From Cyanobacteria bacterium auto_48_18 (lineage in GTDB: Bacteria > Cyanobacteriota > Vampirovibrionia > Obscuribacterales > Obscuribacteraceae): a DNA stretch of 64,000 nucleotides. The stretch's first letter is position 1; each line of letters opens with the position of its first letter. The notes beneath the pieces were generated by a model, which saw only the letters and a list, made by a program, of their open reading frames with translations, did not search any database and was not told the DNA's origin. Shown here piece by piece: positions 44,306 to 60,432 of this stretch. Location: assembly GCA_036170915.1 (NCBI GenBank), contig JAVHQC010000026.1, forward strand, positions 64,001 to 128,000, in the 5' to 3' direction. The position numbers and the translations under genes were made by a program.

Positions 44306-44485
44306 CGCACTAGTGATTTTATATCTATTTGGTGTTCATGCTGCCCCTGCTGAAGGCATTCTATATAGATTAATTGTGCGTGAAAATATGCTGATAAACG
44401 GGTATGATCCGGCTGTGAGGTGTTGCGTCCAACCGAAGCTGTCAGCTGCATCAAGCCACTTTTAATCCCTTATGAGGTTCACTGC

Positions 44486-46279
44486 TTGCACGGAAAAGTT
44501 GATTTAGGCAAAGCTAAAGGTCTTAAACAGTCCGAGATTAAGAAGCTAAATCGGTTATTGCAGCAGCGTATACCTAAAGACAAAATCATCACCATCGAGT
44601 TGGCCGATTCTGTTGCTGAGCTCTCGCACGAAACTGGTTATCCGCTTTCGCTTGTGGTCAATCGCCGTGGTCAGGTAGTAAATGTTACTGTCGGTCAGCC
44701 TTTTGAAGTGGACATGCCTGAACTGCGTGGTGTGCGAGTCGGACCCGGCCGGCTTTGCGGCCATCGCATTATTCATACCCGCCTCGACGACCGCAAAGCG
44801 GCCAGTGCTGAGCTCAAAAGCCAGGGGTCAAAAGATACAAGCCAGGGGGCCTCACCCAATAAAGCCAATCCTGAAAAAGAAATTGTTTCCAAAGAGAACT
44901 TACAGTGTCTCGCTCGCAATCGCTTAGATTTGTTGGCGCAAGTGGGAGTTAATCCCGCCGGTACGTTCAGTCGCAGCAAAGGTGAACAGTCGAAGATAGC
45001 CGATGTGGTTCACATTGCTCATTTGCTCCCCGGTCGCGATGCCGAAGGCAAAATTTGGAAAATTATGCCTGGGTCAACAGCTCGGCGTGCTCAAGACGAT
45101 AATTTTGAAGAGCTGATCAGTGCCCTTGAGCAAGAATTTCGCACACAGGCGCCAGGTCTGGCGGTTGCTGAAGGCGAAGAGCGTGCTTATCTAATTGGTC
45201 TGGTAAGCGATGGTACTGATGCCTGGCAGGTTGAAGACGACCTGGACGAGTTGGCACAACTCTCTAGAACTGCGGGAGCCACTGTTTGCGGGCGTCTGAT
45301 GCAAACGCGGCAACAGCCAGACCCTAAATATTTCTTTGGCTCAGGCAAAATGCAGGAAGTCGCCCTTCACATGCAAGAACTGGGCGCAACGCTGCTTGTG
45401 GTTGATCAAGAGTTGACTCCTAATCAGAAGCGCAATATTGAAGAAGTGGTTGGCGTTAAAGTTATTGATCGCACTGAGTTGATTCTCGATATTTTTGCCC
45501 AGCGTGCACAAACCAAAGAAGGAAAATTGCAAGTCGAACTGGCACAAATGAAATATTTATTGCCGCGGCTGATCGGTAAAGGCGACAATCTATCAAGGCT
45601 GGGGGGTGGAATTGGCACCAGGGGCCCAGGAGAAACCAAGCTCGAAATCGATCGCCGGCGTATTCGCGAAAAAATCACTCTGCTTGAAACCGACGCAGAG
45701 CGCATCGGCAATTATCGAGATGTGCAGCGTAAAAGACGCATCAATGAACATTTGCCGGTGGTGGCACTGACCGGTTATACAAACTCCGGTAAATCGACTT
45801 TGCTCAATGCCTTGACCAAAGCCGACGTTTTCACTCAAGACAAATTGTTCGCCACTCTAGATCCAACAACAAGACGAACTACTCTTCCTGATCACAGCCC
45901 TGTGCTTGTGTCCGATACGGTAGGCTTTATCAAGAAATTGCCCACGTCTTTAGTGACGGCTTTTCGCGCCACTCTTGAAGAAGTTGCAGTGGCCGATGTT
46001 CTTGTGCATGTTGTCGATGCTTCGCATCCTAATGTGTTGGAACATATTAGCGCTGTGCACGACGTTCTCAGTGATCTCGGCGCCGTAGATAAACCGATGA
46101 TTACGGTTTTGAATAAGGCCGATATTGTGCGCAAGGAAGATCTGGCATGGTTAGTTGCTCAAGTGCCTAATCCGGTGGTGGCATCTGCAAAAATTCGATT
46201 TGGCTTGGGCACCATTTTGAGCAAAATACAAGAAGTGATTTCAGAGGTTTGTCCCGAGCGGCAGAAATACAGTGCCTGA
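44486..46279 (+). CDS. hflX: GTPase HflX, long N-terminal form
   Basis: DRTELILDIFAQRA, GTRGPGETKLE, GYTNSGKST, LFATLD, DTVGFI, NKAD; probable TTG start after GAGG within ORF 44420..46279. Confidence 0.95.
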   Translation: MHGKVDLGKAKGLKQSEIKKLNRLLQQRIPKDKIITIELADSVAELSHETGYPLSLVVNRRGQVVNVTVGQPFEVDMPELRGVRVGPGRLCGHRIIHTRLDDRKAASAELKSQGSKDTSQGASPNKANPEKEIVSKENLQCLARNRLDLLAQVGVNPAGTFSRSKGEQSKIADVVHIAHLLPGRDAEGKIWKIMPGSTARRAQDDNFEELISALEQEFRTQAPGLAVAEGEERAYLIGLVSDGTDAWQVEDDLDELAQLSRTAGATVCGRLMQTRQQPDPKYFFGSGKMQEVALHMQELGATLLVVDQELTPNQKRNIEEVVGVKVIDRTELILDIFAQRAQTKEGKLQVELAQMKYLLPRLIGKGDNLSRLGGGIGTRGPGETKLEIDRRRIREKITLLETDAERIGNYRDVQRKRRINEHLPVVALTGYTNSGKSTLLNALTKADVFTQDKLFATLDPTTRRTTLPDHSPVLVSDTVGFIKKLPTSLVTAFRATLEEVAVADVLVHVVDASHPNVLEHISAVHDVLSDLGAVDKPMITVLNKADIVRKEDLAWLVAQVPNPVVASAKIRFGLGTILSKIQEVISEVCPERQKYSA

Positions 46280-47454: not shown

Positions 47455-48843
47455 TTAAAAGCGCAGATTGCCAATGCCCCGGTAGAGCATACGATTGACA
47501 CTGCGATTAAGTTGTCTGGAGACTTGCTTGCCGGTTTGCGATACTATGCGTGGTGCCCGCATAGGGTGATGAACAGCGGGTCTTCGCACCTGTTGCTGGG
47601 GCACGAATACATTACTGCCGGTATTGTTTAAAGTGCCACTGCCGGTGCTACCAAGGTTTGGATTAAAGACAGCGCCTTTTTGCGGCATGACTGTCTGCAT
47701 CATATTCATAATTGCCGGCATAAAACCAGCCGCGGATCCCTGACTGAAAGCAGGCATAGCCTGCCCACCACCATTTGCGCCCATATTCATACTGGCGCCG
47801 TTGCCCATATTGCCCATATTGCCCATGTTGCCCATGTTTCCCGAAGACTGTACTCCGCCCTGCAATTGTTCTTGCTCAAGTACGTCCCCTAGCAGTGGTG
47901 CTTGCCCAGTAGCTTGCTGTTGACTTTGTCCTGCAGGCCTGAACGAGCTGGGTGGAAAAGCTGGTGGGCTACTGTTGTTATTGTTGAAATTATTACCGCC
48001 ATTACTATTGTTATTTGTTACCGGCGTATTCCATTGCGACTGGTTAGTTTGTTGTGGTGGCTGATAGTTGCCCACACCCTGGCTGGAAAAGGCACCAGCA
48101 TTATTATTATTATTATTATTATTATTGTTTGCTTGTGGCTGTGATCCGCTGTTCGGAGTAACCCACCCCGATGTGCCCATACTGCTACTTTGATTGGCAC
48201 CGCCCATGCCACCACTTACTCCACCGCCCATGCCACCACTTACTCCATTGCCTATGTTACCGCTGTTACCACTCATATCACTGGTATCAGTCGTGCCACC
48301 AGGTGTATTCCAGCCTGATGAGCCGATTTGACCACCAGAATTTGAATTGCCTTGGCTATAATTTGCCGGTGCTTGCGTGTTCGTCACCCAACCCTGACCA
48401 CCTTGCTGCGTGTCTTGGGTAGATTGATCCATGTCGCCACTGGGTTCTACCCAATCGCTGGCGCCTTGCTGGCTGCTCTGCTGTTGGGCACCATTTCCAC
48501 TAGTGCCAGAACCCATCTGCTGCCATTCAGATTGCCCCACAGGCTGTTGTCGTTGTTGAAACTGTACAGGTTGCTGAGTAGAAAATTGAGGTGAACCTTG
48601 CTGTACATTTGGCTTCAGAGGTGCTAATTTGGCCACCGGCTTTTTCACTGCCACCGCAGTTTTTTTAACAGCTGCCTTATTATTTAAGAAGGCACCTGGC
48701 GGTTGATTTGCCCAAGTCTGGCTGTCATTGAACGGATTCTGAGCATTTACTGCTTGTACTGTCAGGCAAGACACTGCCAGACAAGATACGGTCAGAGTGG
48801 CAGCCATAGCCATGGTGCCTGTATGTAATTTGGACCGCTTCAT
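47455..48843 (-). CDS. exported Q/N/G/S-rich low-complexity protein
   Basis: Signal peptide ending VNA; Q/N/G/S/M-dominated body; basic C-terminal tail. Confidence 0.75.
   Translation of the reverse strand: MKRSKLHTGTMAMAATLTVSCLAVSCLTVQAVNAQNPFNDSQTWANQPPGAFLNNKAAVKKTAVAVKKPVAKLAPLKPNVQQGSPQFSTQQPVQFQQRQQPVGQSEWQQMGSGTSGNGAQQQSSQQGASDWVEPSGDMDQSTQDTQQGGQGWVTNTQAPANYSQGNSNSGGQIGSSGWNTPGGTTDTSDMSGNSGNIGNGVSGGMGGGVSGGMGGANQSSSMGTSGWVTPNSGSQPQANNNNNNNNNNAGAFSSQGVGNYQPPQQTNQSQWNTPVTNNNSNGGNNFNNNNSSPPAFPPSSFRPAGQSQQQATGQAPLLGDVLEQEQLQGGVQSSGNMGNMGNMGNMGNGASMNMGANGGGQAMPAFSQGSAAGFMPAIMNMMQTVMPQKGAVFNPNLGSTGSGTLNNTGSNVFVPQQQVRRPAVHHPMRAPRIVSQTGKQVSRQLNRSVNRMLYRGIGNLRF
48100..48126. repeat. (ATT)9 microsatellite encoding most of a poly-Asn tract
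   Basis: Read directly; N10 run in the 47455..48843 protein. Confidence 0.9.
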
Positions 48844-48851
48844 CTTAGCTC

Positions 48852-49940
48852 CTAACGATTGATCATACGATTGATGAGCAGATTCATCATTCCGCCGTTG
48901 TTGTTGTATCCGTATGGGTTGCCGTAGCCATTCATGCCGCCCATGCCGTTCATCATGCCGCCCATGCCGTAACCATTCATGCCACCCATACCGTTCATCA
49001 TGCCGCCCATACCATTCATACCACCAAAGCCGCCTAAGCCGCCCATACTCCCCATCATGTTGTTGCCGCCGAGCATGCGGCCCATCATGCTGGTATTGTT
49101 ACCCATCATGCCGCCCATCATGCCGGTGTTACCACCCAACATGCTGCCAGCCGCACGCGCAGCCATGACAGTACCTAAAGTTTTTACCAGCGCCGAACCC
49201 ACAGCCGCAGCCTTACTCGGCTGTCCAGGGGCTTCGGCTGTTGTAGCCGTCGGGGTTGCGGTATTGTCGTCAAACTCAGTGGGCCAGTTTGGATCGGCCG
49301 CCGCAGGTTGAGTAGCCGCTGGTTGCTGGTCAAATTGATTTTGTTGCACCGAACCTTCTACAGGTGCATTGGTAGACTGTGGTGTGAAGCCACTATTCTG
49401 TTGGTATCCCTGACCTTGGTAATTTCCTGAGGGTTGAAATCCTTGAATCTGGCCTAGCGGCCCACCTTGAGGCTGAAAAGCTGGTGGCTGCTGACCCTGC
49501 TGAGCCTGTTGAAACTGCTGAGATTGATATGCCGGTTGCTGATAGCTTTGCTGCGGATTTCCTTGATAACCTGGTGGTGCCTGCACGGGCTGCTGGAAAT
49601 TGCCAGGCTGCTGATAGTTTTGGGGCTGAAAATTCTGGCCCTGATTAGAATAATTTGGTGCCACTTGCGGTGGCGCCCCATTTTGCAAGGGTACAGAAGA
49701 GTTTGAATTTTGGTATTGATTTTGAATCTGATTTTGATTGACTTGTTGTTGGCTCTGGTTAGTGCTTTGCACAAAGCTACCTGGTGGTGCGTTACCACCT
49801 TGAGCAAGAGTCGGTGCGGCCAAAGTAATGCTCAAGCCAATGCCAGCACTGAGACCGATTGCCATTATTTGCAGCGAAGCGCTCGTCATTGAAACGAGCG
49901 CCTTGCGGATTGCTACTTTCGCACTTTTGCTATTTTGCAT
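48852..49940 (-). CDS. exported Q-rich and G/M/N-rich low-complexity protein
   Basis: Signal peptide ending TLA; Q/P/N-rich N-half; GGMMNGMGGMNG repeats in the C-half. Confidence 0.75.
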   Translation of the reverse strand: MQNSKSAKVAIRKALVSMTSASLQIMAIGLSAGIGLSITLAAPTLAQGGNAPPGSFVQSTNQSQQQVNQNQIQNQYQNSNSSVPLQNGAPPQVAPNYSNQGQNFQPQNYQQPGNFQQPVQAPPGYQGNPQQSYQQPAYQSQQFQQAQQGQQPPAFQPQGGPLGQIQGFQPSGNYQGQGYQQNSGFTPQSTNAPVEGSVQQNQFDQQPAATQPAAADPNWPTEFDDNTATPTATTAEAPGQPSKAAAVGSALVKTLGTVMAARAAGSMLGGNTGMMGGMMGNNTSMMGRMLGGNNMMGSMGGLGGFGGMNGMGGMMNGMGGMNGYGMGGMMNGMGGMNGYGNPYGYNNNGGMMNLLINRMINR

Positions 49941-51326: not shown

Positions 51327-52952
51327 CTACTTTTTTGCATTTTCATTGTTTTTTTTATGAGCCGCATCTTTGAAGCCATATTCCGCCCATCGGCTCGCTA
51401 CCTGATCCTTAACCTCTTCAGACATGACAATGGGAGTGGGCCATTCGCGCTCAAATCCTTCTGATTTCCACTTGCGAGTGGCATCGATGCCAACTTTTGA
51501 ACCATATCCCATTAGTGGCGAGGCATGGTCGAGTATATCTACCGGCCCTTCCACGAACATCATGTCGCGCTTGGGGTCGGTATTGCCAAAAACGTGCAAG
51601 GCTACCTCTGAGAGATTGTGCACGTCTACGTCTTTGTCTACAACGATGGCAAACTTGGTGAACATCATCTGACCCAGGCCCCAGATGGCACTCATTACTT
51701 TGCGAGCATGGCCGGGAAAGCGTTTGTCGATGGCCACAATCACGCAATTATGGAATACCCCTTCCCAGGGCAAATTCATATCTGTAATCTCAGGCACCAG
51801 CATCTGCACCATAGGCATAAAGATGCGCTCGGTGGCTTTGCCTAAAAAACAGTCTTCTTGAGGCGGTTTGCCTACGATAGTGGTTTGATAAATCGGGTTT
51901 TTTCTGTGGGTTACAGCAGTGACATGATAGACAGGAAAAAGCCCGGCCAGGCTGTAAAAGCCCGTATGGTCGCCAAAAGGCCCTTCTCGCTTCAGATCTT
52001 TCTGGTCCACATATCCTTCTATAACAATTTCGGCTGAGGCCGGCACTTCGAGGTCGATGGTTTTACATTTGGCCAGGCGTACCGGGCTCTGCCTGAGGAA
52101 ACCGGCAAATATTAACTCGTCTATTTCGGGTGGTAGCGGTGCTGTGGCAGCATAAGTAATCGACGGATCAGCGCCGATTACTACAGCTACCTCCAGTCGG
52201 TTGCCCGGCTTTTCGTATTGTTCTTTTTCAAAGAAAGTGCCGTAATTTGGCGGCTCGCTTGGTTGCCCCGCCGGTGAATCGGGGTGAAGAGCGGCACCAT
52301 TGCCCGATTGAGTTGCATTCGTGATTGAATCTCGCCTGGAGTTTTCGAAATTTTTGGCGCCGTCATGATGTTTATGCCAGTGCATTCCGGTGGTGGAATT
52401 ATCGAATTTTTGCAGCCGATACATACCCACATTGCGGTTGCCGTTGTGCGGATCTTTAGTAATGATCGCTCCCATGGTAATGAATGGACCACCGTCTTCT
52501 GGCCAGCAGGTAATGATTGGAATTTTGTCCAGCATCGGATCATTTGGGTTGGTGATCACGACTTCCTGACAGGGTGCCGGACCGCTAACGACTTTAGGGG
52601 GAAATTTTCCCACTTCCATAATTGTGGGAAGGAAAGCCAGTTTAGCCATAAAACTTTCAGGCACTTTTGGCTTGATGAAAACGCGAATGCGGTCGGCGAT
52701 GGTGTCGAGGTCGTCGACTTCAAGCGACAGACACATTCTTTTCATCGAGCCTTGCGCGTTGATGAGCACCGGCATGTCATAGCCAATAACGTTTTCAAAA
52801 AGGATAGCTTTGTTTTCGCTGCCTGGCAGTTTGCTTACTCGGTCAGTGATTTCGGCAATTTCAAGATGAGCCGAGACCGGTACTTTGATGCGCATTAGCT
52901 CGCCAGCCTTGTCTAAAGCTTCGATGAATTCGCGCAGATCGTTATAAGCCAT
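51327..52952 (-). CDS. UbiD-family prFMN decarboxylase, menaquinone-biosynthesis type
   Basis: YNDLREFI, WPEDGGPFIT, RNVGMYR, EGPFGDHTGFY, LWG-like IWGLGQMMFTK, LDHA, KVGIDAT. Confidence 0.92.
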   Translation of the reverse strand: MAYNDLREFIEALDKAGELMRIKVPVSAHLEIAEITDRVSKLPGSENKAILFENVIGYDMPVLINAQGSMKRMCLSLEVDDLDTIADRIRVFIKPKVPESFMAKLAFLPTIMEVGKFPPKVVSGPAPCQEVVITNPNDPMLDKIPIITCWPEDGGPFITMGAIITKDPHNGNRNVGMYRLQKFDNSTTGMHWHKHHDGAKNFENSRRDSITNATQSGNGAALHPDSPAGQPSEPPNYGTFFEKEQYEKPGNRLEVAVVIGADPSITYAATAPLPPEIDELIFAGFLRQSPVRLAKCKTIDLEVPASAEIVIEGYVDQKDLKREGPFGDHTGFYSLAGLFPVYHVTAVTHRKNPIYQTTIVGKPPQEDCFLGKATERIFMPMVQMLVPEITDMNLPWEGVFHNCVIVAIDKRFPGHARKVMSAIWGLGQMMFTKFAIVVDKDVDVHNLSEVALHVFGNTDPKRDMMFVEGPVDILDHASPLMGYGSKVGIDATRKWKSEGFEREWPTPIVMSEEVKDQVASRWAEYGFKDAAHKKNNENAKK

Positions 52953-53362
52953 ATTAAAACTCCAGTTACAGATTCAATTCTAGAACTTGCAGCGGTCAGA
53001 AGACATATAAAGAACTCGATTGTTATAAAGGGTTTGATTGAATGCACGGTTTACAAGTGAGTGCTAAGCTGGAAGATGGTCATATTGATATGTATGAGGT
53101 CTGATTATGCACCGCGTTTTTGCTTGTTTCTTTTGCCTGATGGCAGCTTCGTGGTTAGGTTTTCAATGTTTGACTGCTTGTATGCTTAATCGGCCTGGTG
53201 CCTGACTTGTTCACAAGTAGATATGCAAAATATATCTATATTCCTCTAGCTAGATCATTTGCCTGGTTCAGGTGCTTGGCTATCGAATGTCGTATCGAAA
53301 CCCGCATCATCAGCTAGCTTGAGTGGATGCTGTGAATATACAAAAGATCTTCATCGGGGGAC

Positions 53363-53390
53363 TTCACAGCAATGCAATTTTCGCTATACT
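53363..53390 (+). promoter_or_regulatory. sigma70-like promoter
   Basis: TTCACA (53363-53368), 16-bp spacer, TATACT (53385-53390). Confidence 0.55.
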
Positions 53391-53396
53391 AATTAC

Positions 53397-53604
53397 ATAA
53401 GCGGTGAGCACACACCAATAAATAAGTTGTGTGCTTTGAGCCGAGGGGTTAAGTGGAAACTTCAGGTCTGCGCAGACCGGAAACTGTAGCGATACCCGCT
53501 GACTGTGGATTCTGACTTGAAGCAGTGAGAAATATCGAGCCTACGCAATAGGCAGTCAGACGATAGTAAAAACACCGCCGCAGATTTATCTGGGTGGTGT
53601 TTTT
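53397..53604 (+). ncRNA. candidate structured ncRNA of unknown family
   Basis: Promoter upstream, terminator downstream, nested stems with GNRA tetraloops, no credible ORF. Confidence 0.55.
53568..53604. terminator. bidirectional Rho-independent terminator
   Basis: AAAAACACCGCCGCAGATTTATCTGGGTGGTGTTTTT: A run, stem, T run. Confidence 0.8.
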
Positions 53605-53630
53605 ATTTTGAGCATTTACTGGGCGCACCA

Positions 53631-54557
53631 CTAGTGGTGTCGTTTCTCTAGGGGCGTATAGCTGTCGTTACGCTCTTCCAGCTCGGGTATCATTGTCGCT
53701 GGTGAACTATACAGGTCTGCAATAGGTTGCTTTGCTTGCTCGAGCATGGTGGCAATGCTTGCCTTTAGTTGCTCTTCACTCATGGCCCCGCGGTTGACAT
53801 TGGTGCTGGGAATTATGCCGCGATTGCCGGGGATAAAAATATAAACCGGTTTGCTCTGCACTCGAAAATGATGAGCAAGATCGGCATACTTTGGGTCTCC
53901 CACTGCGCTACTAATCAGTGAAATTGCTTTGAGTTCTGATTTGTCTTCGGCAGATTTACTACTGTGATCACTGATATACGCTTTTAGCGTCTCATTCGGT
54001 CCGGCCTCGCGATCAAAAAATTCGATCACTAGTGGTGCACTATGTAATTTGTGCAAAATTAAACTGGTGTACGAAAAATCGTTTTCTTTGGCCATGGCAT
54101 CGCGTCGCAATAAAAAATCATGACGATTAAGACGACTCTGGGCTAGCAGATATTTGGTATCAGCTTCTTTGGGTAACTCAGATATTTTGGTGCGCATCAA
54201 ATTGCGATAATTGACGACATTATCAACATGTGATTTTACCGCCACCAGCACAGCCGAATCTGGCGGGCCGCAAAGGTCTTGGTTGATTTCAAAATCTCCC
54301 ATCATTGATGCATTGCGAGCGTCGATGGAAATTATCTGATCGTCTTTTTGAATGCCTGCTAAAAGGGCCGGCGATTCTTCCATGACGCGAGTAATTACAG
54401 GATATTCTTGGTCAAGAAAAGCAAACTGCAGCCCAACTACACCAACGCTTGGAATTTCTACTTTCGCTTCTTCCGGTTTGCTCAAAAGCAGTGGCAGCAC
54501 CACTACCGTTACGGAAAGAAGCGCTAGAACAATAACAATCACCAGGCCTGGCCGCAC
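53631..54557 (-). CDS. membrane-anchored PDZ protein with Cys-less thioredoxin-like C-terminal domain
   Basis: N-terminal TM; GVVGLQF..SPALLAGIQKDDQIISID PDZ; PLVIEFF...LAHHFRVQSKPVYIFI. Confidence 0.65.
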   Translation of the reverse strand: MRPGLVIVIVLALLSVTVVVLPLLLSKPEEAKVEIPSVGVVGLQFAFLDQEYPVITRVMEESPALLAGIQKDDQIISIDARNASMMGDFEINQDLCGPPDSAVLVAVKSHVDNVVNYRNLMRTKISELPKEADTKYLLAQSRLNRHDFLLRRDAMAKENDFSYTSLILHKLHSAPLVIEFFDREAGPNETLKAYISDHSSKSAEDKSELKAISLISSAVGDPKYADLAHHFRVQSKPVYIFIPGNRGIIPSTNVNRGAMSEEQLKASIATMLEQAKQPIADLYSSPATMIPELEERNDSYTPLEKRHH

Positions 54558-58020: not shown

Positions 58021-60432
58021 CTATTTGTCCTTCTTCTTTTTATTGGCACTAGCGCTCGCTTTAGGCCTGGCTGCGGCAGCTTTTTTAGTACCATTGCTGC
58101 TGCTTGAATTACCGTTGCCATTGCTACTGCCAGAGCCGTTGCTATTTTTGTTCGCTGCTTTCAGGCTGTCTTTAGGATTAGCATTGGCTTTGATGCTTTT
58201 GATGCCGTTCACTCGTGGAAGCGGAGTGGCGCCAGGAACGCGTTTGCGGTGGTCTTTGCGGTGCACGCGAATGACGTCTGAAATTTGTGAAATGGCTTGT
58301 GATACTCGGGCCAGTTGCTCGATGTCTAACACGTCGAGAATCAAGAAGATGGTGGCAGTTTTCTTGTCGCGGTGAGTATCAACGCGCAGGTCGCGTAGAT
58401 TGACTTTGTGATCAGAAACTTTTTTCAAGATATCGCCGGCGATACCAACTCTGTCGAGGCACTCAACTTGCAAACCTGCCGGATACTGAGTGTTGCGCTC
58501 CATCGACCAGTCAACAGCCATACGCCTGCCTTCTTCGATTTTAGCAAGCATATTGCAGTCGGCTCTGTGCACAGCAATGCCGCTGCCACGAGAAACTACC
58601 CCGGCAATTTCTTCGCCAGGTACTGGTTGGCAGCATTTAGCCAGGTGGTGCAGAAGACCTCCGAGACTAGAGATGTTGCTTGGTTTATCAGGCACCATTT
58701 GTGGAATGGTGTAGCCTTTAAGAGCAAGTTTTTCAGCATTGTCGACTTCGCGAATGCGATTGACTACCTGTGCCACCGAGAGGTCGCCGTAACCAACTGC
58801 TGCAAGAATATCTTGGGGATCAGAAATGTTGAGCCGCCTGCCGGCCTCTTTTAGCTTATCTGATTTGAGAAACTCATCTAGATTGCCTTTACCCAATTCA
58901 GCTTCAAGCATCTGCCGGCCTTGCTGAATGTGTTCTTCTCTGTGGTGCTTCTTAAACCACTGACGAATGCGGTTTTTGGCACCATGAGTTTTAGCAAAAT
59001 TGAGCCAGTCCATTTTGGGCTGACCGTTTTTGCTGGTGAGAATTTCGACGATGTCGCCGTTTTTCATAATAGTGTTCAGTGGCACAATGCGTTCGTTGAT
59101 GCGGGCTCCCACACAGCGGTGGCCAACATCGGTGTGCACACGATAAGCGAAATCGATAGGGCACGAGCCGTTAGGAAGATCGAGCACGTCACCGCGCGGA
59201 CTGAAAACAAATACTTCGTCGGCGAAGAGATCCATCTTCACTTCTTCGATGTATTCACCTGAGTCTTTAAGATCTTGCTGCCAATCAACCAGCTGTCTCA
59301 ACCAGGCTAATTTTTTATCGGTGGAGCCGTCAGCTTTGACTGCTTCACCAGCTTCTTTGTAGGCCCAGTGAGCGGCGATACCATATTCGGCAATATGGTG
59401 CATACGCTTAGTGCGTATTTGAATTTCTACAGGTTTGCCTTTAGGGCCAATCACAGCTGTGTGCAAAGACTGGTAGCTGTTGAATTTAGGCATGGCAATA
59501 TAATCTTTAAAGCGGCCTGGAATCGGCTTAAAGATTGAATGCACCGTACCCATTACTTCGTAACACTTTTGCGTATCAGGATCAGATTCTAATTCGCAGA
59601 AATTTTTATCAGGATTGCTGTCGATGATAACCCGCACTGCCAGTACATCGTAGAGTTCTTGAAAGGCCTTTTGCTGACTTTTCATTTTGCGCCAGATACC
59701 AAAAAAGTGTTTTGGTCTGCCGATGATGTCTGCCTGAATACCGCGACTTTCGAGGTCAGCGCGCAGCTTGTCGACTACCTGCGCTAAATGCTCAGCGCGA
59801 TCTTCACGACTGTCTTCTACCAGACGTTCTATTTCTAAATATTCGTCCTGGTGTAAATAGCGCAGCCCGAGGTCTTCTAGCTCCCATTTCATCTTACCTA
59901 AACCGAAACGGTTGGCTAGAGGAGCAAAAATTTCTAGAGTTTCTTTGGCTTTTTCCGCTTGTTTATGCGGTGCCATATGTTCCATGGTGCGCATGTTGTG
60001 CAGTCGGTCAGCCAGTTTTACCAGCACCACACGTACATCTTCGGCCATTGCCACGAGTAACTTGCGGAAATTTTCGGCTTGCCGCTCTTCTTTAGAGCTG
60101 AAGCTGAATTTTCCCAGTTTGGTGACACCTTCGACAATTCTTCTGGTGTCGACGCCGAATCGATCTTCTATTTCTTTTGGCTTTACATCACAGTCTTCGA
60201 GCACGTCGTGCAGCAAGCAAGAAGAAACAGTGTCAATGTCGGCATTAATGTCAGCCAGTATGCAGGCCACTTCTACCGGGTGAATGATATAAGGGTCGTC
60301 AGATTTGCGCATTTGCCCGTCGTGGGCAGCATAGGCAAAGTCGTAAGCTTTATGAGCAATCGCGATCTCTTCTGCCGGACGACCCTGTCTTTCTAAAATG
60401 TCAAATAAGGGCTGACCGATCTGATCTTTCAT
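58021..60432 (-). CDS. relA: bifunctional (p)ppGpp synthetase/hydrolase (Rel)
   Basis: Intact HD motif LLHDVLED, KLADRLHNMRT, RFKDY, EIQIRT; TGS and ACT domains. Confidence 0.96.
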   Translation of the reverse strand: MKDQIGQPLFDILERQGRPAEEIAIAHKAYDFAYAAHDGQMRKSDDPYIIHPVEVACILADINADIDTVSSCLLHDVLEDCDVKPKEIEDRFGVDTRRIVEGVTKLGKFSFSSKEERQAENFRKLLVAMAEDVRVVLVKLADRLHNMRTMEHMAPHKQAEKAKETLEIFAPLANRFGLGKMKWELEDLGLRYLHQDEYLEIERLVEDSREDRAEHLAQVVDKLRADLESRGIQADIIGRPKHFFGIWRKMKSQQKAFQELYDVLAVRVIIDSNPDKNFCELESDPDTQKCYEVMGTVHSIFKPIPGRFKDYIAMPKFNSYQSLHTAVIGPKGKPVEIQIRTKRMHHIAEYGIAAHWAYKEAGEAVKADGSTDKKLAWLRQLVDWQQDLKDSGEYIEEVKMDLFADEVFVFSPRGDVLDLPNGSCPIDFAYRVHTDVGHRCVGARINERIVPLNTIMKNGDIVEILTSKNGQPKMDWLNFAKTHGAKNRIRQWFKKHHREEHIQQGRQMLEAELGKGNLDEFLKSDKLKEAGRRLNISDPQDILAAVGYGDLSVAQVVNRIREVDNAEKLALKGYTIPQMVPDKPSNISSLGGLLHHLAKCCQPVPGEEIAGVVSRGSGIAVHRADCNMLAKIEEGRRMAVDWSMERNTQYPAGLQVECLDRVGIAGDILKKVSDHKVNLRDLRVDTHRDKKTATIFLILDVLDIEQLARVSQAISQISDVIRVHRKDHRKRVPGATPLPRVNGIKSIKANANPKDSLKAANKNSNGSGSSNGNGNSSSSNGTKKAAAARPKASASANKKKKDK

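What the first reader, a model, noticed from the sequence alone, without database searches (positions are those of the whole stretch)
53363..53604. Candidate stand-alone structured ncRNA of ~210 nt with its own promoter and terminator
Seen: the 680-bp gap between the ubiD-family gene and the PDZ gene holds a sigma70-like promoter (TTCACA-16bp-TATACT) pointing at a terminator (53568-53604). Domain 1 is closed by AGCGG (53400-04) with CCGCT (53496-500). It encloses AGCACACA/TGTGTGCT (53407-14/53428-35), AAGT-GGAA-ACTT (53451-62), GGTCT-GCGC-AGACC (53465-78) and GTA-GCGA-TAC (53486-95); two of these loops are GNRA tetraloops. Domain 2 is ACTGT/ATAGT (53502-06/53563-67) stacked on TCTGACT/AGTCAGA (53511-17/53554-60), enclosing GCCTA/TAGGC (53539-53). 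Inference: nested multi-way junctions and GNRA loops suggest a folded RNA. By eye it does not match tRNA, tmRNA, RNase P, SRP or a 6S rod, and no same-strand gene follows it, so a riboswitch is unlikely. It may be an undescribed RNA family.
Basis: partly seen in the sequence, partly recalled or inferred. Interest (0 to 1): 0.75.

Follow-up and report, generated by a model that had tools for sequence, protein, structure and literature searches.

The report
Known poplar-1 RNA, probably self-pairing dimer
This is a real stand-alone RNA gene, but it belongs to an already catalogued family of unknown function (poplar-1); here the family is a multi-copy hallmark of one bacterial order, and one of its loops evolves as if two copies of the RNA pair with each other.

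Summary
The RNA is real but not undescribed. Window 53435-53570 (+) matches Rfam RF03041 poplar-1 over the whole model at 115.8 bits (gathering 110.5). The gene runs about 53397-53606, longer than the Rfam model, between a sigma70-type promoter and a terminator. The genome holds 6 full copies and 1 split copy; 59 of 61 genomes of the order (Obscuribacterales by record titles) carry 1-12 copies, and 0 of 150 other genomes of the phylum matched. On 69 divergent copies a corrected fold is strongly supported (95.7% paired, 44 of 54 pairs with double changes): a 5' kink-turn hairpin, a long P2 with a symmetric internal loop, a pseudoknotted P3/P4 domain and the terminator. New here: the P2 tetraloop is self-complementary in 68 of 69 copies, and its two adjacent central bases change together (CG, UA, AU), which points to an RNA homodimer. 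Two upstream DNA boxes are conserved at fixed distances. Best reading: a trans-acting, dimerising RNA scaffold or sponge, dosed by copy number. No partner was identified.

The parts
53262..53283 (+). Upstream conserved DNA box, about 92-96 bp before the GGGG element; putative activator site
   Evidence: Best hit of a profile falls in this position band in 55 of 65 upstream regions against 1-9 in 20 shuffles (the profile was trained on the same regions, so only the fixed position counts). Function inferred.
53356..53364 (+). Conserved GGGG(T/G)AC(TT) element abutting the -35 hexamer; putative activator half-site
   Evidence: Motif in 163 of 185 distinct upstream regions, 156 of them at one 5-bp band of distances (pattern drawn from these sequences). 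With a -10 box at the right spacing it occurs 10 times in the genome, 7 being this RNA's copies; a profile scores those 7 at 29.7-37.6 and the next site at 20.7. No such element stood at promoter position before 60 tRNA/tmRNA genes (3 loose matches of another kind).
53363..53390 (+). sigma70-type promoter: TTCACA, 16 bp, TATACT
   Evidence: 10 of 12 consensus; not above chance alone. A TAnnnT-type -10 box at fixed spacing in 156 upstream regions.
53397..53606 (+). Full-length poplar-1 RNA gene (about 210 nt); ends inferred
   Evidence: Model R1 scores the locus 197 bits. Start inferred 6 nt after the -10 box. A 206-nt contig from an RNA library spans 53397-53602 with 0 differences (run X1); contigs cannot show strand or true ends.
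53435..53570 (+). Part covered by Rfam RF03041 poplar-1 (model positions 1-141 of 141)
   Evidence: 115.8 bits, gathering 110.5
53402..53443 (+). P1: kink-turn hairpin, mostly outside the Rfam model. NC stem 53402-05/53440-43, tandem G.A/A.G 53406-07/53438-39, 3-nt bulge 53435-37, C stem 53408-14/53428-34
   Evidence: Tandem GA/GA with flanking G-C and U.G in 68 of 69 rows (rows were chosen by this 5' motif, so part of the conservation is by construction); C stem 6 of 7 pairs with double changes; definition from PMC5061560 passages
53446..53497 (+). P2: long irregular hairpin with a two-fold pseudo-symmetric internal loop, RGAAACnnYA on each side (53455-64 / 53479-88)
   Evidence: Helices 3-5; many loop positions at 94-100% conservation; G53456-Y53487 and C53463-G53480 can pair in 69/69 and 68/69 rows
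53465..53478 (+). P2c hairpin GGTCT-GCGC-AGACC: a perfect 14-nt palindrome with a self-complementary tetraloop (53470-73); putative dimer interface
   Evidence: Loop GCGC 57, ACGU 6, GCGU 3, GUAC 2, other 1 of 69; central dinucleotide CG 66, UA 2, GG 1; AAUU and GUAC in two further members
53499..53529 (+). P3 hairpin (53499-505/53523-29); its loop carries the 5' strand of the pseudoknot (53511-17)
   Evidence: 7 of 7 pairs with double changes
53511..53560 (+). Pseudoknot: P3 loop 53511-17 pairs with 53554-60 in the internal loop of P4; not drawn in the structure line printed for the Rfam match
   Evidence: 6 of 6 tested pairs with double changes, 94.9% paired
53533..53565 (+). P4: P4a 53533-37/53561-65 and P4b 53539-43/53549-53 with a GCAA-ended loop
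   Evidence: P4a 99.7% paired, 3 of 5 pairs with double changes; P4b 3 of 4
53566..53606 (+). P5: intrinsic terminator hairpin with U-tract; the stem extends past the U-run (53567 pairs with 53605)
   Evidence: 99.3% paired, 6 of 8 pairs with double changes; 53567-53605 is C-G 56, U-A 7, U.G 5
51327..52952 (-). Divergent neighbour: menaquinone-pathway UbiD decarboxylase (context only)
   Evidence: TIGR03701 603 bits over cut-off 496; an RNA copy lies beside it in 11 of 12 genus loci (3 cut by locus or contig ends) and in 1 of 6 loci of other genera of the order
53631..54557 (-). Convergent neighbour: PDZ-domain protein (context only)
   Evidence: PF00595; seen beside the RNA in 3 of 217 copies examined

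Best explanation
A poplar-1 (RF03041) gene: a self-contained module of about 390 bp (about 180 bp of regulatory DNA plus a 210-nt RNA ending in its own terminator). Shown: family membership, the fold, the multi-copy and order-restricted distribution, conserved upstream boxes, no fixed partner gene. Inferred: (1) a dedicated activator binds the two upstream boxes and drives all copies together; (2) the RNA folds into kink-turn hairpin, P2, pseudoknotted P3/P4 and a 3' stem that protects the end; (3) two molecules join through the self-complementary P2 loop, first as a kiss and then as a 14-bp duplex, giving a two-fold symmetric dimer; (4) the dimer acts in trans through its shape, not by pairing with mRNAs, most likely by binding and titrating a protein (or holding two copies of one), with gene copy number setting the dose, in the manner of Csr/Rsm sponges or raiA/ModT. 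Odds by step: membership 0.97, trans-acting transcript 0.9, dimer 0.7, protein scaffold or sponge 0.5.
For: Rfam match over the whole model. 6 full copies in the genome and a 7th split across two contig ends. 59 of 61 genomes of the order; 0 of 13 and 0 of 150 genomes outside it; the longer model R1 gave one 17.6-bit match among 95 genomes of other families of the class. Fold: 95.7% of 3709 cells paired, 44 of 54 pairs with double changes, 0 of 500 shuffles as high, slid controls 33-39%; most top mutual-information pairs lie in these helices or extend them. Dimer: loop self-complementary in 68 of 69 rows (16 of 256 random tetramers, 36 with G.U) against 13, 16 and 6 of 69 for the three other loops under a lenient test; neighbouring bases cannot pair within one strand, yet the centre reads CG, UA or AU; GUAC arises about 3 times and ACGU about 5 times on a rough tree; searches aimed at non-CG centres returned only GUAC (2 matches in 107 genomes) and AAUU plus GUAC (the 2 true members among 7 metagenome matches); computed gain on dimerising the window RNA -19.9 kcal/mol, and real loops beat random loops in 68 of 69 hairpins. 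In trans: 270 flanking proteins of 217 copies fall in 149 clusters; the downstream gene is on the same strand in 80 and on the other in 57; ORFs inside the RNA vary from 13 to 53 aa and copy lengths spread over all three frames. Contigs from RNA libraries of 4 of 4 studies laid cover the RNA; poplar-1 is named among RNAs enriched in the intracellular fraction of a drinking-water metatranscriptome (10.1101/2025.10.18.683149, one passage).
Against: No experiment shows a dimer, a partner or a phenotype. The central CG-to-UA/AU changes rest on few sequences (2 of 69 plus 4 from targeted searches, at least one of which looks the same as an aligned row); one row has a non-palindromic loop; the tree is short-sequence FastTree without support values and held 5 non-members. 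The obvious partners are missing: no CsrA, TROVE/Ro60 or Hfq hit in this 86%-complete genome and no L7Ae-family hit in 27 genomes of the order. Some good genomes lack the RNA (G192 97% and G217 92% complete), so it is not essential everywhere. Contigs in RNA libraries do not prove transcription or strand, and no DNA run was laid as a control. No activator was identified.
Confidence: 0.55

Rival explanations
1. Protein-free functional RNA: the dimer or the P3/P4 pseudoknot binds a small ligand (a trans-acting sponge, for example for a signalling nucleotide) or is catalytic.
For: Riboswitch-like architecture: kink-turn, pseudoknot, invariant junction bases; no L7Ae protein to serve the kink-turn; kink-turns build ligand pockets in riboswitches (PMC5061560 passages).
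Against: No metabolic gene association to suggest a ligand; Weinberg et al. argue that 3' terminators are at odds with self-cleavage for other motifs of this layout (PMC5737381 passage; not about poplar-1).
Confidence: 0.2
2. Selfish or semi-selfish module that spreads by DNA-level duplication and recombination; the extra copies and arrays mostly reshuffle neighbouring genes, and the RNA serves the element.
For: Paralogs share about 390 bp with common limits (query 980-985 to 1376); an empty site: two genes with a ~560-bp insert holding the module in G000, G006 and G009 are nearly adjacent in G003, G005 and G007; arrays of up to 9 copies in 16-19 kb with unrelated or paralogous genes between; 5 of 6 full copies in G000 are 92-94% identical to this one or are this one.
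Against: Copies include promoter DNA upstream of the start, so not retroposition; no transposase, integrase or reverse transcriptase recurs among flanking proteins by eye in the 28 largest clusters; no target duplication seen (flanks only 67-75% alike); stable sites beside ubiD and an M16 peptidase; 1 viral-contig match only; confinement to one order.
Confidence: 0.13
3. Base-pairing regulatory sRNA family like cyanobacterial Yfr2 (multi-copy, shared promoter box), acting on mRNAs.
For: Same genetic layout as Yfr2: several copies, no synteny, conserved activator box (PMC2662882 and PMC6191309 passages); sister lineage.
Against: No Yfr2 match in Rfam; Yfr2 is described as a 12-nt loop on one stem with a single-stranded 5' end, while here almost all conserved bases sit in helices, internal loops or junctions; no Hfq hit.
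Confidence: 0.08
4. Cis-acting leader, riboswitch or antisense RNA for a neighbouring gene.
For: An M16 peptidase gene follows on the same strand in 18 copies.
Against: In this window the next gene is convergent; neighbours and orientation vary widely; every aligned copy ends in a terminator and no alternative pairing was seen among the top covarying pairs.
Confidence: 0.04

Closest known systems
poplar-1 RNA (Rfam RF03041; type Gene; sRNA). Origin in the supplement of Weinberg et al. 2017 (PMC5737381) is recalled; the main text has no 'poplar' and the supplement could not be read
   Same: Whole-model match above the gathering score; P2, P3, P4a and P4b agree with the structure line printed for the match.
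   Different: Whether the unread supplement already notes any of these is unknown.
raiA motif RNA / ModT (PMC12968392, passages)
   Same: About 200 nt, pseudoknotted, acts in trans, function unknown.
   Different: Single locus per genome in Bacillota and Actinomycetota; different fold; no Rfam match here; no dimer loop in the passages read.
Natural RNA homodimers: OLE, ARRPOF, and group IIC HYER1/5 with palindromic pairing (review PMC12990946, passages); retroviral dimer-initiation hairpins (recalled)
   Same: Self-complementary pairing as a dimer interface; HYERs without the palindrome stay monomers.
   Different: No sequence or family relation; the dimer here is inferred from covariation only; poplar-1 is not named in the review.
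Yfr2 sRNA family of cyanobacteria with the CGRE1/PlmA promoter box (PMC2662882, PMC6191309, passages)
   Same: Multi-copy, non-syntenic, strongly expressed sRNA genes with a conserved activator box, in the sister lineage.
   Different: Yfr2a is about 80 nt, one hairpin with a 12-nt loop; CGRE1 is a 21-22 nt palindrome; no Rfam match.
CsrB/RsmXYZ protein-sponge sRNAs (recalled)
   Same: Multi-copy RNA genes under one activator, dosage logic.
   Different: GGA is not conserved and sits in an internal loop; no CsrA hit in the genome.

Membership tests
poplar-1 (RF03041) | Covariance-model score at or above the gathering threshold over the model | tested here: met
   115.8 against 110.5 bits, positions 1-141 of 141
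poplar-1 (RF03041) | Consensus helices P2, P3, P4 supported by covariation | tested here: met
   Helices 3-6, 8, 9
poplar-1 (RF03041) | Context and comments given by the original authors | not testable with these tools
   Supplement of PMC5737381 too large to read
standard kink-turn | 3-nt bulge followed by tandem G.A and A.G pairs | tested here: met
   68 of 69 rows, rows partly selected by this motif; definition in PMC5061560
standard kink-turn | Flanked by a C helix and an NC helix | tested here: met
   Helix 2: 6 of 7 pairs with double changes; helix 1: 99.6% paired, only 2 single-row double changes
standard kink-turn | Kinked geometry in solution or binding of an L7Ae-family protein | not testable with these tools
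   No PF01248 hit in 27 genomes of the order, so a native L7Ae partner is unlikely
palindrome-mediated RNA homodimer | Self-complementary apical loop kept through compensatory change | tested here: met
   68 of 69 rows; centre CG/UA/AU
palindrome-mediated RNA homodimer | Dimer seen physically | not testable with these tools
   Only a computed energy gain
CsrB/RsmZ sponge | Several conserved GGA motifs in hairpin loops | tested here: not met
   53455 is G in 54 and A in 15 rows, 53479 G in 46 and A in 21; both in an internal loop
CsrB/RsmZ sponge | CsrA/RsmA in the genome | tested here: not met
   No PF02599 hit in G000, 86% complete
Yfr2 | Single hairpin with conserved 12-nt loop and single-stranded 5' motif; Rfam match | tested here: not met
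6S RNA | Rod with central bubble; RF00013 match | tested here: not met
   No match here; 6S-like matches below cut-off lie at other loci in 11 of 26 other genomes of the order
riboswitch / cis leader | Same-strand downstream gene of consistent function and an expression platform | tested here: not met
   Convergent gene here; 80 same-strand against 57 opposite, no common function
integron attC / MITE | Cognate integrase or transposase, defined ends, target duplication | tested here: inconclusive
   Common module limits and an empty site, but no enzyme among recurrent neighbours and no duplication visible at 67-75% flank identity
type I toxin-antitoxin antitoxin | Conserved small toxin ORF overlapping or antisense | tested here: inconclusive
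   No conserved ORF inside the RNA on either strand; flanking ORFs under 100 aa were not clustered

The most novel reading that the evidence does not exclude
poplar-1 is a small natural RNA-only dimer that marks the order Obscuribacterales: two 210-nt kink-turn and pseudoknot RNAs join through a covarying palindromic loop into a two-fold symmetric particle without L7Ae, Hfq or CsrA; paralog classes with different P2c stems sort into separate dimers (computed gain 0.0 kcal/mol for this copy's hairpin with the divergent C36 copy, -19.9 for each with itself); a dedicated activator runs the family, and the module spreads as a 390-bp unit into arrays. This would be a new kind of dosage-controlled RNA sponge or scaffold in the non-photosynthetic sister group of cyanobacteria.
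Probability: 0.35. Interest if true: 0.65.

Novelty: new member of a known kind. Interest (0 to 1): 0.4.

Why it matters
The family is catalogued but has no known function. This work gives it a host order, likely full-length ends, a corrected structure and one sharp, cheap test: dimerisation through a palindromic loop whose adjacent bases covary. Natural RNA oligomers are rare (PMC12990946 abstract), so a 210-nt bacterial dimer would be a good cryo-EM target, and the conserved upstream boxes give a bait to find its regulator. As a discovery of a new RNA family the finding fails.

Tried and rejected
tRNA/tmRNA: none in the window. 6S replacement: rejected, since 6S-like matches sit at other loci in the order. 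CsrA, Hfq, TROVE: no hit in G000 only; L7Ae: no hit in 27 genomes of the order; misses in incomplete genomes do not show absence. Yfr2 homology: my recalled link through a repeated GGAAAC motif was not confirmed; the one occurrence in PMC2662882 is in a primer for another RNA. The GGGG element as a general promoter feature: not seen before tRNA genes, and no wider regulon in the genome; the upstream box is too degenerate to define a regulon (133 sites above threshold, 26 of the top 30 inside ORFs). Its position fits a class II CRP/NtcA-type site (recalled), but the left half is not conserved in this copy; kept as a weak lead only. Dedicated partner gene: none (crude ORF calls, loci of about 3 kb). 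Distant homologs: one 17.6-bit match outside the order (G288), not accepted; large searches scored only 19-58 candidates per genome. Five of 7 metagenome matches were dropped as non-members (no R1 match). RNA runs: the flanks 53100-53385 and 53620-53850 had no cover in 4 of 4 runs and adapter sequence follows 53604-53605 in one run; missing cover in contigs is not evidence, adapters also mark ends inside the RNA, and no DNA run was laid. Pairing between poplar-1 and the second RNA on C10: one duplex calculation without control, uninformative. Literature: 'poplar-1' with 'RNA motif' 0 papers; 'poplar-1' 1 preprint; 'RF03041' 0; 'Obscuribacter' with 'noncoding RNA' 0; searches listed nothing on this family.

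Full report
Observation. The left gene is a divergent menaquinone-pathway UbiD decarboxylase; the right gene is a convergent PDZ protein. The strand folds better than 200 of 200 shuffles (z -4.35; reverse strand -3.90). The promoter alone is not above chance and the simple scan missed the terminator.

Identity. Rfam gives one match in the region and in the whole window: RF03041 poplar-1, 53435-53570 (+), 115.8 bits against a gathering score of 110.5. So the family is catalogued. In the held library 'poplar-1' occurs in one preprint, which lists it among RNAs enriched in the intracellular fraction of a drinking-water metatranscriptome (10.1101/2025.10.18.683149; one passage seen); 'RF03041' occurs in none. 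I recall the family as one of the 224 motifs of Weinberg et al. 2017; the main text has no 'poplar' (passages seen) and the supplement could not be read, so it may already hold some of what follows.

Distribution. The genome has 6 full copies and a seventh split between the end of C30 and the start of C31; four of the other five are 92-94% identical to this one and one is 64%. Copies were found in 27 of 27 other genomes of the order and 0 of 13 from other orders, in 59 of 61 genomes of the order with 1-12 matches, and in 0 of 150 other genomes of the phylum. One viral contig matched. A full-length model (R1) found one weak match (17.6 bits) among 95 genomes of other families of the class. Two good genomes of the family lack the RNA (G192, G217).

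Structure. From 188 distinct full-length copies (35 partial or motif-less hits dropped) I took 75 below 90% identity, removed 6 with faulty ends, and aligned 69. Rows were found and cut with motifs from the 5' part, so conservation there is partly by construction. A fold of P1 (kink-turn hairpin), P2, P3, a pseudoknot from the P3 loop to the internal loop of P4, P4 and the terminator gives 95.7% paired cells and 44 of 54 pairs with double changes; no shuffle of 500 reaches this, and slid controls give 33-39%. The structure was drawn from one of these rows, which favours it over the slid controls; the unsupervised mutual-information ranking puts mostly the same pairs on top. P1 has a 3-nt bulge followed by tandem G.A and A.G pairs in 68 of 69 rows, the definition of a standard kink-turn (PMC5061560, passages); most of P1 lies outside the Rfam model. 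P2 has a pseudo-symmetric internal loop with RGAAAC on both sides.

The dimer signal. The P2c hairpin of this copy is a perfect 14-nt palindrome. Over 69 rows the loop is GCGC 57, ACGU 6, GCGU 3, GUAC 2 and other 1: 65 strictly and 68 with G.U self-complementary, against 13, 16 and 6 for the other three loops under a lenient test and 16 of 256 (36 with G.U) by chance. The two middle bases are CG 66, UA 2, GG 1. To test this I searched for members whose centre is not CG: in 107 genomes of the order the pattern for a non-G third base gave 2 matches, both GUAC, from one genus (14-nt hairpins only, and I did not count how many copies the pattern could have caught); in metagenomes the pattern for a non-C second base gave 7 matches, of which 2 are members, with loops AAUU and GUAC. 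On a rough tree built without that hairpin GUAC needs 3 changes and ACGU 5 (no support values, 5 non-members included, some GCGC rows mislabelled 'other'). Neighbouring bases cannot pair inside one strand, so compensation there is best explained by pairing between two molecules. The computed gain is -19.9 kcal/mol for this RNA, and real loops beat random loops in 68 of 69 hairpins. A DNA-level cause is less likely: the whole hairpin is a strict palindrome in 23 rows but needs G.U in 33 more. Palindromic pairing is a known dimer interface (HYER1/5; review PMC12990946, passages). The dimer is inferred, not shown.

Regulation. A GGGG(T/G)AC element abuts the -35 hexamer in 163 of 185 distinct upstream regions at nearly fixed distance. 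With a -10 box it occurs 10 times in the genome, 7 being the RNA copies, and a profile separates those 7 from all other sites; tRNA promoters lack it. A second box lies 92-96 bp further up in 55 of 65 regions (1-9 in shuffles). Both patterns were learned from the same sequences; their fixed positions are the evidence. This suggests one dedicated activator, as for Yfr2 with CGRE1 (PMC6191309, passages); none was identified.

Context and spread. 270 flanking proteins of 217 copies form 149 clusters, with mixed orientation; the largest are kinase paralogs in tandem arrays (21), an M16 peptidase (18) and ubiD (8). The ubiD-linked copy is present in 11 of 12 genus loci and 1 of 6 loci from other genera of the order. 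Arrays of up to 9 copies occur. Paralogs share a unit of about 390 bp, and one site is filled in three genomes and empty in three others. So the module is gained and lost at the DNA level; no mobilising enzyme or target duplication was seen.

Expression. Contigs from RNA libraries of 4 studies were laid (4 of 24 runs listed); all cover the RNA, and one 206-nt contig spans 53397-53602 with no difference. Contigs do not show strand, level or true ends, and DNA can be present in such libraries.

Mechanism. No CsrA, Hfq or TROVE hit was found in this 86%-complete genome, no L7Ae-family hit in 27 genomes of the order, and 6S-like RNAs lie elsewhere. There is no conserved ORF and little conserved single-stranded sequence for a seed. 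The best reading is a trans-acting, shape-based RNA that dimerises and titrates or scaffolds an unknown protein, with copy number as dose (0.55). Rivals: protein-free ligand sponge or ribozyme (0.2), selfish module (0.13), base-pairing sRNA (0.08), cis element (0.04). It works most like raiA/ModT (PMC12968392, passages) and, in gene layout, like Yfr2 (PMC2662882, passages) and Csr/Rsm RNAs (recalled), but is a member of none.

Earlier notes of this scan, read only at the end, also file such elements as poplar-1 of Obscuribacterales and one notes the kink-turn; a look-up for a palindromic dimer loop in poplar-1 found none. They are unchecked and not counted as support.

Verdict. New member of a known family; interest 0.4, carried by the testable dimer prediction and the regulatory module rather than by the RNA's existence.

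Noticed in passing
G000:C10 about 60050-60250, minus strand (L222, L238): A second unnamed non-coding RNA candidate of about 200 nt with a sigma70-type promoter and a terminal hairpin; single copy in 22 of 24 other genomes of the family, no Rfam match to E 5, not at the 6S-like loci in two genomes compared. Its promoter resembles the GGGGTAC element in G000 but not in three other genus members aligned.
   Followed up: partly
G000:C32 about 64740-64785, C30 about 126425-126468; further hits on C11, C29, C31, C33: A ~45-bp AT-rich palindromic repeat upstream of two poplar-1 copies and at several other places in the genome; REP-like or an operator.
   Followed up: partly
L211 (G226:C10) and L212 (G204:C8): Arrays in which poplar-1 copies alternate with paralogous Ser/Thr kinase genes on the opposite strand, beside the M16 peptidase site.
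   Followed up: partly
G000:C36 212374-212446 (L001, L221): The divergent poplar-1 copy lies back to back with a tRNA-Thr gene, with an M16-like peptidase and a dUTPase-like ORF about 5-6 kb downstream (names read by eye).
   Followed up: no
G000:C33 15652-16458 and 164122-165603; C11 99418-99644: Dense tRNA arrays with many atypical tRNAs, of the kind carried by mobile elements.
   Followed up: no
G000:C16 70006-70101: A tRNA-Sec gene is called, suggesting selenoprotein use.
   Followed up: no
window 53208-53240 and 53325-53345: Repeated (G/A)ATAT(G/A)CA-like motifs shared by the near-identical copies of this genome, about 110 bp apart; AT-rich TATAT motifs recur 130-140 bp before the GGGG element across the order.
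   Followed up: partly
relatives, RF00013: 6S-like matches in this class all fall below the Rfam cut-off (16 of 39 genomes), and none was found in G000; the class seems to have a divergent 6S RNA.
   Followed up: no
window 44420-46279: HflX-type GTPase with a long N-terminal extension of about 270 aa before the Pfam domains.
   Followed up: no
window 47455-49940: Two adjacent secreted-looking low-complexity proteins rich in Gln, Asn, Gly and Met, downstream of an S41 protease gene.
   Followed up: no
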